NCBI GenBank assembly: GCA_964016885.1
Contig: OZ024753.1
Coordinates: 8,060,001-8,124,000, forward strand
DNA from: Eledone cirrhosa
Lineage: Eukaryota
Direction of reading: 5' to 3'
DNA length: 64,000 bases
Shown here piece after piece: positions 122-55,669 of the stretch (its first letter is position 1; every line of letters begins with the position of its first letter). Both the position numbers and the translations under genes were made by a program. Below the pieces are notes generated by a model. That model worked only from the letters and a program-made list of their open reading frames with translations. It was not told the origin of the DNA and made no database searches.

Positions 122-282
122 TTACATCACCAGTCTGATGAGCAGATCGATATTGATACTGGAGTCAAGTCTATAACTCCTGTGGGTCATCTTGAGCCAA
201 TCATCTGTGAAATGCATATAACAAGTCGATACACAATCAATATTTTTCATATGTAAATGAAACTTCCTCATTTTTTTCTATT
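122..282 (+). mobile_element. Single-arm hammerhead-bearing element between (TA)n tracts, degenerate
   Basis: ctgatga 135-141; stem II gcagat/atctgt with a long insert; gaaa 209-212 followed by tgcatata-acaag; stem I largely lost; 3' part matches 38560-38630. Confidence 0.55.
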
Positions 283-496
283 ATATATATATATATATAT
301 ATAGATATGTATATATATATATATATATATATATATATATATATATATAAGAGAGAGAGAGAGAGGGTTTGGTTCTGCCAGGCTTAAAAAATGCCCAAGA
401 AATGGTGTGTGAGAATGTGGTGCCCCTATGACTATCAGGAGTTATGAGATAAAGAACAAAAAATATATATATATATATTTATATAATATATATATA

Positions 497-618
497 GTCC
501 TATATGAGCGAGACACGGTCACCTGACCAACCTTGCCTCAAGTGGGACAACTCCCGTCTAACTCATGCTAGCGTGGAAGATGGACGTTAAAGAATGATGA
601 TGATGATGATGATGATGA
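497..618 (+). mobile_element. 3' fragment of a third retroelement family ending in (ATG)n; relatives near 12308-12471, 20300-20400, 21160-21397, 31600-31760, 36830-37083, 39270-39400, 44235, 44705, 46487, 57220
   Basis: Shared cctatatgagcgagacacggtcacctgacc...ccgtctaacccatgctagcgtggaagatggacgttaaa(tga)n. Confidence 0.75.
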
Positions 619-719
619 TATAAATATATATACATAGATATAGATATATATATATACATATATATTTGTATATATATATATATATATATATATATATATA
701 TATATATATATATATAATG

Positions 720-840
720 TGAAGGTGTGTGGCTGAGTGGTTAGAGAATTGGATTCGCAATCGTAAGGTTGTGAGTTCGATTCCTGGACCAGGCGATGCG
801 TTATGTCCTTGAGCAAGACACTTTATTTCACGTTGCTCCT
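720..840 (+). mobile_element. tRNA-derived SINE family B, 5' portion
   Basis: A box tggctgagtgg, B box gagttcgattc, then tgtccttgagcaagacactttatttcac (CORE/V-domain-like). Confidence 0.8.
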
Positions 841-1296
841 TCTACCTGGAGTTGCGACCGATAGATAGTATTAGCAATTGGAAAGACCAACGGAAACATT
901 GTTACCGCGGTCCGATTTGGCGAAAGTCGATCGTACCTTTTATCTATATGTATGTATGTAGGTTAAACAATGAAAACAAAATGAGGAGGTTCAGTCCTTA
1001 AATAATCCAGTTTTACAATCATTTCTAAGGATAAAATGAAACATGTTGTGGCAGAAAAAACAAGGTGGTGTAGGACAGAATAAAGGAGAGAAACAAAATA
1101 ACAAATTACTTACAGAGTAAGTCAGAGAATGTGTGACGAAAGAGCTTTGACAATAAATAAACAGGCATCTGGTTATTAAACCAACCAACTGTTGCAAGTG
1201 TTTTTATTGACAGCAATACCCTCCCAAAGTATAACATTATCTGTTTCAACACAAATTTTCAGAGAAGAAATCTTGCAAAACAAGTACAAAAAACGA

Positions 1297-3630
1297 AGTA
1301 TATATATATACACACACACACATACAGATATATATATATATATATATATATTCTTTCTGTTATTAATTCTGGCAATATTATTACAAAAATATATATATAT
1401 ACATATATACATATGTACAGATATATATATATATATATATATACATATCTACAGATATATATATATATACATATATACATATCTACAGATATATATATAT
1501 ATACATATATACATATCTACAGATATATACATATATACATATCTACAGATATATATATATATACATATATACATATCTACAGATATATATATATATACAT
1601 ATATACATATCTACATATAATTATATATATATATATATATATATATATATATATATATATATATATACATATATACATATATATATATATATATATACAT
1701 ATATACATATCTATATATATATATATATATACATATGTACAGATATATATATATACATACATATGTACAGATATATATATATATATATATATATATATAC
1801 ATATGTACATATATATATATATATATATACATATGCTCAGATATATATATGTACAGATATATATATATATATATACATACATACATATGTACAGATATAT
1901 ATATATACATATATATACATACATATGTACAGATATATATATATATATATATATATATATACATATATATACATACATATGTACAGATATATATATATAT
2001 ATATATATATATATATATATACACACATACATCATTCATCATTGTTTTAAGTCCATTTTCCACCCTACATGTGCATGTCTAGGTATACAGTTGTATGTGA
2101 TAAATACGAAGTTTAGATCTCGACTTCCTTCATTATTTAGCAGTCAATTTACTGAAGGATAAAGTAAATTACTTGTAATAGCAGAGTATATGAAGATATA
2201 GCAGTACCAGAACAGTCTCCACAGCTATCCAATGTACACAAACCCTATTATCTAGAGCAAAGGTGTGAATTATTTATAAATCAATCTGTCTCTCTCTACC
2301 AATCTAAACCAATAATAGCTAAACTGTCTAATCACCTCTTGATCTTTAGCGTAACTGGAATACATTGTTTCTTCAGCTTTTACTTTCACCGTTTATCCCT
2401 TCCCGTCTACCCCTGCTAACTGTGATATGTATATGTATATATATATATATATATATATATGTATATGTATATATATATATATGTGTGTTTGTGTCTGTGT
2501 GCATGTATGTATATGTATATATATATATGTATATATGTATATGTATATATATATGTGTATGTATATATATATATGTGTATGTATATATATCTATATGTAT
2601 ATATATATATATATATGTATGTATATGTATATATGTATATATATGTATATATGTATATGTATATATATATGTATATATATATATGTATATATGTATATGT
2701 ATATATGTATATGTATATATATATGTATATGTATATATATGTATATGTATATATGTATATGTATATATATATGTATATATATATATGTATATATATATGT
2801 ATATATATATGTATATATATATATATGTATATATATATGTATATATATATGTATATATATATGTATATATATATGTATATATATATGTGTATATATATAT
2901 ATGTATATATATGTATATATATATATGTATATATATGTATATATATATATGTATATATATGTATATATATATATGTATATATATATATGTATATATATAT
3001 ATGTATATATATATATGTATATATATGTATATATATATATATGTATATATATGTATATATATATATGTATATATATGTATATATATATATGTATATATAT
3101 GTATATATATATATGTATATATATATGTATGTATATATATGTATATATATGTATATATATATATGTATATATATGTATATATATATATGTATATATATAT
3201 GTATATATATGTATATATATATGTATATATATGTATATATATATGTATATATATGTATATATATATATGTATATATATATATGTATATATATATATGTAT
3301 ATATGTATATATATGTATATATGTATATACATATGTATATATATATATATATATATGTATATATATATATATATATGTATATATATATATGTATATATAT
3401 ATATATATATATATATGTATATATATATATATATATATGTATATATATATGTATATATATATATATATATATGTATATATATATGTATATATATATGTAT
3501 GTATATATATGTATATGTATATATATATGTATGTATATATATGTATATATATATATATATATACATATATATATATATGTATGTGTTTGTGCGTGTGTGC
3601 ATCTATATATATATATATATATATATGTAT
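1297..3630. repeat. Compound TA/TG/CATA microsatellites (1297-2030 and 2425-3630)
   Basis: Direct inspection. Confidence 0.95.
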
Positions 3631-54349: not shown

Positions 54350-54641
54350 TAAATATGACTAACAACAGTAAATACTGCTAACAACAATAAATACTGCTAA
54401 CAACTGTAAATACTGCTAACAACTGTAAATACTGCTAACAACTATAAGTACTGCTAACAACAATAAATACTGCTAACAACTGTAAATACTGTTAACAACT
54501 ATAAATACTGCTAACAACTATAAATACTGCTAACAACAGTAAATACTGCTAACAACAGTAAATACTGCTAACAACTATAAATACTGCTAACAACTATAAA
54601 TACTGCTAACAACTATAAATACTGCTAACAACTATAAATAC
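54350..54641. repeat. 19-bp minisatellite, about 15 units
   Basis: aaatactgctaacaac(tat/tgt/agt/aat). Confidence 0.9.
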
Positions 54642-54919
54642 CAACAGGGAAACCTTAGAAGTATTGTATTTTGTGAGAGGGTGATATAAATAAATACTTT
54701 CATATATGTATATATCTGTATATATATATATATATATATATATTTATATATATATCATCATCATCATTTTACGTCTGCTTTTCCCTGCTTGCAAGGGTGG
54801 GACGTATGTATATAAATATATATATATATATACACACACACACATATATATATATATATATATATATATATATATATATATAATATATAAGATCAAAAGA
54901 TGGTTAAATGAGTTCCATG

Positions 54920-54990
54920 TATTTTATTATGTGCATTTCAAAAACAAATATCATCATGCAATAACATTTGTGTTTTCATCAGATAAAATA
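54920..54990 (-). ncRNA. Type I hammerhead ribozyme, inverted copy
   Basis: Reverse complement of 55095-55165 (tcatcag 54976-54982); stem III reads AUGCACAU, one substitution. Confidence 0.75.
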
Positions 54991-55094
54991 GGAGGACATG
55001 ATATGAAGGCTAAAAACACTTGTGGATAGTGCAGTTTTAAATCAACATATCTGCACTATCCACAAGTGTTTTTAACCTTCATATCATGTCCTCC

Positions 55095-55165
55095 TATTTT
55101 ATCTGATGAAAACACAAATGTTATTGCATGATGATATTTGTTTTTGAAATGCGCATAATAAAATA
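55095..55165 (+). ncRNA. Type I hammerhead ribozyme, structurally complete
   Basis: Stem I UAUUUUAU (55095-55102) pairs with AUAAAAUA (55158-55165). Core CUGAUGA 55103-55109; long stem II (aaacacaaatgttat/atgatatttgttttt); GAAA 55146-55149; palindromic stem III AUGCGCAU; predicted cleavage after AUA at 55157. Confidence 0.85.
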
Positions 55166-55669
55166 CATGGAACTCATTTAACCATCTTTTGATCTTATAT
55201 ATTATGTATACTCCAGTCCTACAAAACTGTAGAGTGCTTCTTATCCGATATCTGCATTGCTTTATTGTACTACAATAAAACTCACCTCCTACATATATAT
55301 ATATATATATATATATATATATATATATATATATATATATATATATATATATATATATATATATGTGTGTGTGTGTATATAATGTGTATATATTGTTGAC
55401 ACCCACTAAAAGAAGAATAAAACCAAAGAAACTACCATCTTACGTTTAAATAGCACTATGTACAGGATTGGTTTCAAATTGTCATTCTTAACTTTTGCAT
55501 CTTCTAGTTTAATAAAAAAAATTATTCTGAAATTTAAACATTTCTAACTACTTCCTTTTTCAGCTGTTGTTGATGTTTGTCTTTTTATTGGTCTTCTCAA
55601 ATTTGACATACGCAACTACTACATGTACACTCACTGGAATAACTATATCATCATCATCATCATCATCAT

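What the first reader, a model, noticed from the sequence alone, without database searches (positions are those of the whole stretch)
122..55290. Several distinct hammerhead/fold-back families in 64 kb, mostly docked at (TA)n
Seen: loci at 122, 3923, 20466, 27250, 27985, 28243, 29097, 29293, 38154, 38500 and 54880. Most have one short antisense arm and one longer sense arm, and most abut TA repeats. Inference: a diverse population of microsatellite-targeting, ribozyme-bearing retroelements that may help seed or expand the TA fields. Hammerheads in Penelope-like elements are known; whether these particular families are described cannot be determined here.
Basis: partly seen in the sequence, partly recalled or inferred. 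Interest (0 to 1): 0.75.

Follow-up and report, generated by a model that had tools for sequence, protein, structure and literature searches.

The report
Stubs of Hydra-clade Penelope retroelements
These loci are short stubs of a known kind of jumping gene (Penelope-like elements, likely all of the Hydra group) that carry a predicted self-cutting RNA motif and sit mostly in TA repeats; their lopsided mirror-image shape is likely made when one RNA is copied from both cut ends of the target DNA.

Summary
All 11 loci are real and fall into 7 high-copy repeat families of a 3.0-Gb animal genome. They are 5'-truncated 3' ends of Penelope-like retroelements (PLEs). The family at 54880 belongs to a full element with a 794-aa RT–GIY-YIG ORF bearing Hydra-clade motifs. 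Each family has a type I hammerhead; one uses the U3-A8 core variant. In the window only 5 of 11 loci keep CUGANGA, 8 are head-to-head inversions and 8 abut (TA)n. In 800 kb of evenly spaced genome sample, 55 of 70 element ends abut (TA)n against 7.5% by chance. Hammerheads, (TA)n targeting, inverted copies and a one-sided tail are all published for this clade. Seeding of TA fields is unsupported. Beyond print: 21 of 22 unbiased inversions carry the tail on exactly one arm, and the tail-less arm often reaches further 5'. A conserved hairpin follows the inner end in all 7 families and the outer end in one. This favours priming from both DNA ends at two fixed sites (inferred, not tested). The scan noted this model and the hairpin before, on other pieces of this genome.

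The parts
122..287 (+). F1 single 5'-truncated arm between TA runs; hammerhead core CUGAUGA 135-141, long stem II, GAAA 209-212, predicted cleavage after 220; one stem I mismatch relative to other copies; ends at the inner (tail-less) end
3917..4233 (.). F2 head-to-head inversion; both arms hold a complete type I hammerhead (cores at 4081 on +, 3974 on -); + arm carries part of the tail; not TA-docked
20466..20669 (.). F3 inversion between (TA)22 and (TA)14; tailed arm on -, tail-less arm on +; only the 3' half of the U3-A8 hammerhead is present
27247..27445 (.). F4 inversion; tailed arm on -; + arm has GAAA changed to GAGA, - arm lost stem I at the junction
27985..28124 (.). F3 inversion with non-overlapping arms: tail only on -, 3' half of hammerhead on +; cannot fold back
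28125..28402 (.). Two F5 copies (28125-28308 on +, 28324-28402 on -) with tailed 3' ends facing across (TA)8; likely two insertions in one microsatellite, not a fold-back element
29058..29290 (.). F2 inversion; tailed arm on -; + arm hammerhead lacks C3 and the stem I 5' strand
29291..29355 (-). F3 single tail-less arm between TA runs; 3' half of hammerhead only
38151..38436 (.). F6 inversion; cores at 38274 (+) and 38250 (-), each with a decayed stem; tailed arm on +
38493..38692 (.). F1 inversion holding only the cleavage site, stem I 3' strand and tail; tailed arm on +
54875..55293 (.). F7 inversion between TA runs; complete hammerheads on both arms (cores 55103 on +, 54982 on -); tailed arm on +; 3' end (pLTR) of an autonomous Hydra-clade PLE found elsewhere in the genome
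55210..55237 (+). Tail hairpin RCUC-stem-loop-bulge-GAGYRC of F7; counterparts start at 4186 (+), 20512 (-), 27290 (-), 28213 (+), 38374 (+, mutated), 38634 (+); candidate docking signal for the RT

Best explanation
The loci are 5'-truncated 3' ends of Penelope-like retroelements, likely all of the Hydra clade, which carry a predicted dimer-dependent type I hammerhead and insert preferentially into (TA)n; their head-to-head shape likely arises because the element's protein cuts both strands of the TA repeat and copies one RNA from both DNA ends, starting at two fixed sites. Shown: family structure, the link of F7 to a full RT-GIY-YIG ORF, TA enrichment, two fixed 3' ends (inner P, outer T, 62-96 nt apart), one of each per inversion, and a conserved hairpin after P in all 7 families and after T in F7. 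Inferred: the hairpins are where the protein docks; the two cDNAs stop early and are joined at their far ends by repair; most stubs are dead, and a transcript through a fold-back would lock its ribozyme in a long duplex. Ribozyme cleavage was not tested.
For: F7 runs upstream into RT and GIY-YIG coding sequence. 2 of 6 extended loci have an uninterrupted ORF of 794 and 797 aa between direct repeats of the hammerhead region, with an inverted copy in front (L371, L372). The ORF has RLRW, SDKT, YRDD, CxCX5C, and CxxC..N..CxH, the Hydra features listed in PMC8557442 section 11; 59 homologs at E<=1e-10, of which 11 were aligned, share them. F2 is colinear over about 1.1 kb with endonuclease coding sequence in 2 loci. 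F3 and F4 have an endonuclease remnant upstream in one locus each. TA adjacency in 80 evenly spaced 10-kb stretches: T ends 33 of 41, P ends 22 of 29; random positions 7.5%; one control repeat 8 of 86 and 3 of 74. Exactly one tailed arm in 21 of 22 unbiased and 189 of 199 total inversions. The tail-less arm reaches more than 5 nt further 5' in 13 of 21 unbiased pairs, and arms do not overlap in 13 of 189. F3 arms share an 11-nt subfamily marker in 46 of 54 pairs, against 16.5 (max 27) permuted. Tail hairpin in 260 of 337 tailed arms; a slightly stricter form of the descriptor hits 0.7% of random 170-mers. A second hairpin lies 8 nt past T in 8 of 10 read-through F7 copies. In vitro, a Poseidon PLE cuts and extends both strands and starts at two internal sites that bound the tail (PMC11167929). 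Two copies of the F7 hammerhead co-fold into the dimer with an 8-bp helix III.
Against: F1, F5 and F6 were not linked to an ORF. No tree against reference PLE clades was built; clade rests on motifs. P0001 had no significant Pfam hit and Rfam found no hammerhead above E=1.3 in 3 targeted scans. 10 of 199 inversions break the one-tail rule, and 1 of 4 long F7 units has two tailed ends. In 91 of 189 pairs the arms start within 5 nt of each other, which fold-back self-priming also explains. Matched subfamilies could also come from one source active at a time or from conversion between arms. 177 of the 199 pairs come from search-seeded loci or the window. The tRNA-derived SINE also abuts TA (12 of 31, 7 of 21), so TA adjacency is not unique to these families here.
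Confidence: 0.82

Rival explanations
1. Same elements, but the inversions come from fold-back self-priming (on an antisense RNA, as proposed for rotifer PLEs, or on the first cDNA), and one arm is trimmed afterwards at the TA-like inner end.
For: Proposed in PMC3846280 from junction palindromes (passages). In 91 of 189 pairs the arms begin within 5 nt of each other. Arms share subfamily. The inner end is itself TA-like and could be cut by the element's endonuclease; PMC8557442 ascribes the tail to endonuclease-mediated resolution.
Against: In 66 of 189 pairs the tail-less arm holds 5' sequence that the tailed arm lacks, while the tailed arm holds the tail, so neither arm is a copy of the other. 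In 13 of 189 the arms do not overlap, including window locus 27985. These need extra trimming steps under self-priming.
Confidence: 0.25
2. The short loci are self-propagating non-autonomous retrozyme-like elements with a circular RNA stage, which also seed or lengthen (TA)n.
For: Most copies are short, and F3 and F4 arms end at narrow 5' positions. Animal non-LTR retrozymes derive from PLE pLTRs (bioRxiv 10.64898/2026.07.22.740005, abstract and first part). Adjacent TA runs are longer.
Against: Retrozymes are defined there as tandem units with a complete hammerhead in each. The window loci are single arms or inversions, and 6 of 11 lack CUGANGA. Junctions differ between copies. 1558 of 1611 TA runs have no adjacent end of these families.
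Confidence: 0.07
3. The loci are MITEs or fold-back DNA transposons with terminal inverted repeats, and the hammerhead cores are chance.
For: Palindromic shape and TA flanks, as for Tc1/mariner targets (recalled).
Against: The fold point varies, the two ends differ by a tail, many copies are single arms (45 of 89 unbiased arms have no partner within 60 nt), and F7 is contiguous with an RT ORF. The descriptor gives 63 hits in 800 kb against 0-4 in 10 shuffles.
Confidence: 0.01

Closest known systems
Hydra clade of C-terminal-endonuclease Penelope-like elements (Craig et al. 2021, PMC8557442; passages, section 11, supplement parts 2 and 53 and search hits read)
   Same: Single ORF with RT then GIY-YIG; RW and DKT motifs; CxCX5C linker; CxxC and CxH around E and N; canonical hammerhead near the 3' end; (TA)n insertion; 5' truncation, partial tandems, inverted copy, tail at one end.
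   Different: These families were not found in that supplement (0 hits for 6 motifs of 12-14 nt; F5 not searched; line breaks may hide hits). Unit about 3.6 kb against under 3 kb; tails 62-96 nt against 30-40 bp; RWI in place of RWK; one family has a U3-A8 core. The one-tail pairing rule and the tail hairpin are not in the passages read, although the hairpin can be read by eye in Hydra-2_Amil, Hydra-2_Ajap and Hydra-1_Ajap.
Minimal hammerheads of metazoan PLEs (Cervera and de la Pena 2014, PMC4209133; first two of four parts read)
   Same: Type I, long helix II, palindromic helix III for dimer folding, U3-A8 core variant, mostly single motifs from truncated PLEs, pairs 100-700 bp apart on opposite strands.
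   Different: G10.1-C11.1 is absent in most families here (A-U, U-U or A-G by eye). Density is far higher: about 49 credible motifs in 800 kb, against thousands per genome reported there.
PAc (Poseidon PLE of Anolis) in vitro mechanism (Frangieh et al. 2024, PMC11167929; first two of four parts and passages read)
   Same: AT-rich target, both strands cut and extended, two internal start sites that bound the tail, a stem-loop near the start sites.
   Different: Different clade. The passages read do not tie the two start sites to the two arms of inverted insertions. There the tail lies within the ORF; in F7 it lies in the 5' UTR, 80 nt before the ATG.
Animal non-LTR retrozymes (bioRxiv 10.64898/2026.07.22.740005; first of five parts read)
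   Same: Non-coding PLE-derived sequence with a type I hammerhead.
   Different: Retrozymes are tandem arrays with a complete ribozyme per unit; these loci are single or inverted stubs, most with broken ribozymes.

Membership tests
Penelope-like element (EN+) | Single ORF with RT and GIY-YIG endonuclease | tested here: met
   F7: 794- and 797-aa ORFs. Partial coding links for F2, F3, F4. No link found for F1, F5, F6.
Penelope-like element (EN+) | Partial tandem forming pLTRs, with inverted 5'-truncated copy and a tail at one end | tested here: met
   L371, L372, L374, L376; one tailed arm in 21 of 22 unbiased pairs.
Penelope-like element (EN+) | Hammerhead in the pLTR | tested here: met
   Core intact in 25 of 39 F1, 36 of 38 F2, 43 of 58 F4, 22 of 24 F5, 29 of 34 F6, 60 of 60 F7 copies (the F3 pattern in that call matched nothing). 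F3 U3-A8 core in 5 loci.
Hydra clade | RWK and DKT motifs, CxCX5C linker, CxxC and CxH flanking E and N | tested here: met
   F7 ORF has RLRWI (K replaced by I), SDKT, CNCPAKNKC, CNLC..NEK..INRR..CLH; compared with the text and by eye with Hydra-1_Obim. F4 remnant has CxCX5C.
Hydra clade | Insertion into (TA)n | tested here: met
   55 of 70 P and T ends against 7.5%.
Hydra clade | RT phylogeny groups with reference Hydra elements | not tested
   Reference proteins were seen only as supplement text; no tree was built.
Neptune clade (my first guess) | CX2-5CxxC linker and CCHH finger in the endonuclease | tested here: not met
   Linker is CxCX5C and RT has DKT, as in Hydra.
Hammerhead ribozyme, type I | Core with three helices | tested here: met
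   4 arms in the window against 0.29 in shuffles; 63 hits in 800 kb against 0-4; dimer co-fold. Rfam models did not reach threshold.
Hammerhead ribozyme, type I | Self-cleavage | not testable with these tools
   Needs transcription and cleavage assay.
Non-LTR retrozyme | Tandem units, each with a complete hammerhead | tested here: not met
   No tandem array among the 11 loci; 6 of 11 lack CUGANGA.
MITE | Fixed, matching terminal inverted repeats, no RT link | tested here: not met
   Ends differ by the tail, fold point varies, F7 linked to RT. Target duplications cannot be read inside (TA)n.

The most novel reading that the evidence does not exclude
Hydra-clade PLEs carry two copies of one RNA hairpin that fix two reverse-transcription start sites. 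A protein dimer uses them to copy a single RNA from both ends of a cut TA microsatellite, which explains the inverted pLTR and one-sided tail of Penelope-like elements in general, and has left several hundred thousand stubs in this genome.
Probability: 0.5. Interest if true: 0.62.

Novelty: new member of a known kind. Interest (0 to 1): 0.4.

Why it matters
As an observation it is largely ordinary: new families of a described clade doing what that clade is reported to do. It matters modestly in two ways. First, PMC8557442 names the origin of PLE tandem/inverted structures and microsatellite bias as an open question; the one-tail pairing rule, the arm-reach asymmetry and the twin hairpins make a direct in vitro test possible, and the genome holds intact ORFs of a young family. 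Second, the load is large: 89 arms of these seven families in 800 kb (bootstrap 63-118) extrapolates to roughly 240,000-440,000 arms, about 1.5% of the sample, and they escape Rfam.

Tried and rejected
Rfam: the whole-window scan was flooded by TA-repeat matches to miRNA models; at gathering scores only a SINE tRNA passed; 3 targeted scans gave at best Hammerhead_3 at E=1.3. The repeat finder was swamped by TA fields. A CUGANGA core upstream of F3 was sought twice: 0 matches, then 43 unrelated contexts; the family uses U3-A8. My Neptune assignment was dropped after reading the Hydra criteria. An apparent F6-ORF link at L255 was rejected: that ORF is 83% like F2's. An apparent F1-ORF link at L253 was rejected: the ORF lies beyond an inverted arm. 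Searches to link F5 and F6 to ORFs returned places but no DNA. No ORF homolog lies in the window. No RNA holder was listed. Laying contigs of 4 runs on 3640-4540 showed no empty site. A second hairpin past T could be tested only in F7; no read-through copy with it was found for the other six. Literature searches: Penelope + twin priming + inverted gave 2 unrelated papers (listing only); a five-term search with stem-loop gave 0; searches gave no paper on these families. Repbase, Dfam and subscription papers were not searchable, and the supplements of PMC11167929, PMC4209133 and PMC3846280 were not read. Of 63 descriptor hits, 11 from two simple tandem arrays and 3 judged chance by eye were dropped before the figure of about 49.
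Full report
Check of the observation. The window lies in a 3.0-Gb animal genome, G000; I did not establish the species. All 11 loci exist and sort into seven families, F1-F7, each with hundreds to thousands of first-look candidates in the genome. Eight loci are head-to-head inversions. 122 and 29293 are single arms. 28243 is two F5 copies facing tail to tail across (TA)8. Five of 11 loci keep CUGANGA, and two (four arms) pass a strict type I descriptor, against 0.29 hits in shuffled windows. Eight of 11 loci abut (TA)n.

What the families are. 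Copies of F7 run upstream into RT and GIY-YIG coding sequence. Of six extended loci, two hold an uninterrupted ORF of 794 and 797 aa between direct repeats of the hammerhead region, with an inverted copy in front. In full elements the 'tail' continues for 80 nt to the ATG, so the window's stub is a pLTR. The ORF shows RLRW, SDKT, YRDD, a CxCX5C linker and CxxC..N..CxH. These are the features given for the Hydra clade, which is reported to carry canonical hammerheads and to insert into (TA)n, and includes an octopus family (PMC8557442). F2 is colinear with endonuclease sequence in two loci; F3 and F4 have such a remnant upstream in one locus each; F1, F5 and F6 remain unlinked. All seven share the same order (hammerhead, inner end P, tail, outer end T) and the same tail hairpin, so I treat them as one kind, with less certainty for the unlinked three.

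The ribozymes. Across fetched copies the core is mostly intact and position 7 varies in F1, F5, F6 and F7. F3 has the U3-A8 variant in five loci, with four different bases at position 7; this variant is described for Schistosoma PLEs (PMC4209133). Helix III is palindromic in F2 and F7, and two F7 copies co-fold into the dimeric hammerhead. Rfam does not detect them. A whole fold-back folds into one long duplex, so a read-through transcript would likely bury the ribozyme. Cleavage is untested.

Unbiased sample. I fetched 80 evenly spaced 10-kb stretches. They hold 89 arms of the seven families and 63 descriptor hits against 0-4 in ten shuffles; about 49 remain after dropping 14 artefacts, and they include many further families. 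(TA)>=4 lies within 12 nt of 33 of 41 T ends and 22 of 29 P ends, against 7.5% of random positions and 10.8% in arm-bearing loci. One control repeat gave 8 of 86 and 3 of 74, two others 0; the tRNA SINE gave 12 of 31 and 7 of 21. Targeting holds. Seeding does not follow: 53 of 1611 TA runs touch these ends, and their greater length (median 12 vs 9) fits a larger target as well as growth.

How the inversions likely form. Exactly one arm has the tail in 21 of 22 unbiased pairs and 189 of 199 in all. The tail-less arm reaches further 5' in 13 of 21 unbiased pairs (tailed arm further in 2, level in 6), and arms do not overlap in 13 of 189. In such pairs neither arm can be a plain copy of the other. 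F3 arms share their subfamily marker in 46 of 54 pairs against 16.5 permuted, and 21 of 27 against 4.5 outside the seeded loci. A bulged hairpin, RCUC...GAGYRC, follows P in 260 of 337 tailed arms across all seven families, with an A-U to G-C change in F6. A second copy lies 8 nt past T in 8 of 10 read-through F7 copies (I looked after reading note e1-8804881). The same fold can be read by eye in three published Hydra elements. A purified Poseidon PLE cuts and extends both strands and starts at two sites bounding the tail (PMC11167929). The simplest reading is priming from both target ends, one at P and one at T, on one RNA, with early stops and repair joining. This is inference. The published rival is antisense self-priming (PMC3846280), which fits the 91 of 189 level pairs but needs added trimming for the rest. 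Ten of 199 pairs and one of four long F7 units break the rule.

Novelty and verdict. Class, clade, ribozyme, target and insertion shape are in print. The families appear undescribed in what I could search, with Repbase and Dfam unseen. The pairing rule and twin hairpin were not found in print, but this scan has noted both on other pieces of this genome; I had reached the pairing rule and first hairpin before reading those notes. Verdict: new members of a known kind; interest 0.4, resting on the testable insertion model.

Noticed in passing
L271-L350 (800-kb sample): The descriptor finds many hammerhead families beyond F1-F7, roughly 20 by eye, including two more with a U3-A8 core; about 49 credible motifs in 800 kb suggests on the order of 10^5 in the genome.
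   Followed up: partly
F3 and F4 copies genome-wide, e.g. window 20466-20669: 5' ends cluster tightly: 19 of 30 F3 arms end 50-63 nt before P, inside stem II, and 15 of 21 F4 arms end 60-72 nt before P, near stem I. Part may be a reference-length effect for F4. A structural stop for the RT or a fixed RNA end is possible.
   Followed up: partly
L371:2846-5230, L372:2384-4777: Uninterrupted F7 ORFs, with pLTR copies 97-99% alike, point to a young, possibly still active family. The protein has an asparagine-rich stretch between RT and linker, as reported for rotifer PLEs.
   Followed up: partly
window 38709-39040, 20763-21090, 27457-27700, 12594-12930: A tRNA-derived SINE-like repeat, several copies; its ends also abut TA more than chance (12 of 31, 7 of 21).
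   Followed up: partly
window 9022-9208, 15843-16443, 49345-50043, 60297-60989, 21398-21584: An approximately 190-bp repeat present singly and in short tandem arrays on both strands; not TA-docked; used only as a control.
   Followed up: no
L146, L259, L288, L329; window 27985-29390: Different families stack next to each other in one TA run, giving nested clusters of stubs.
   Followed up: no
G000 contig C28: A stretch upstream of F6 has 9 of its 40 best hits, including the top 9, on C28, several within 43-46 Mb: a local expansion.
   Followed up: no
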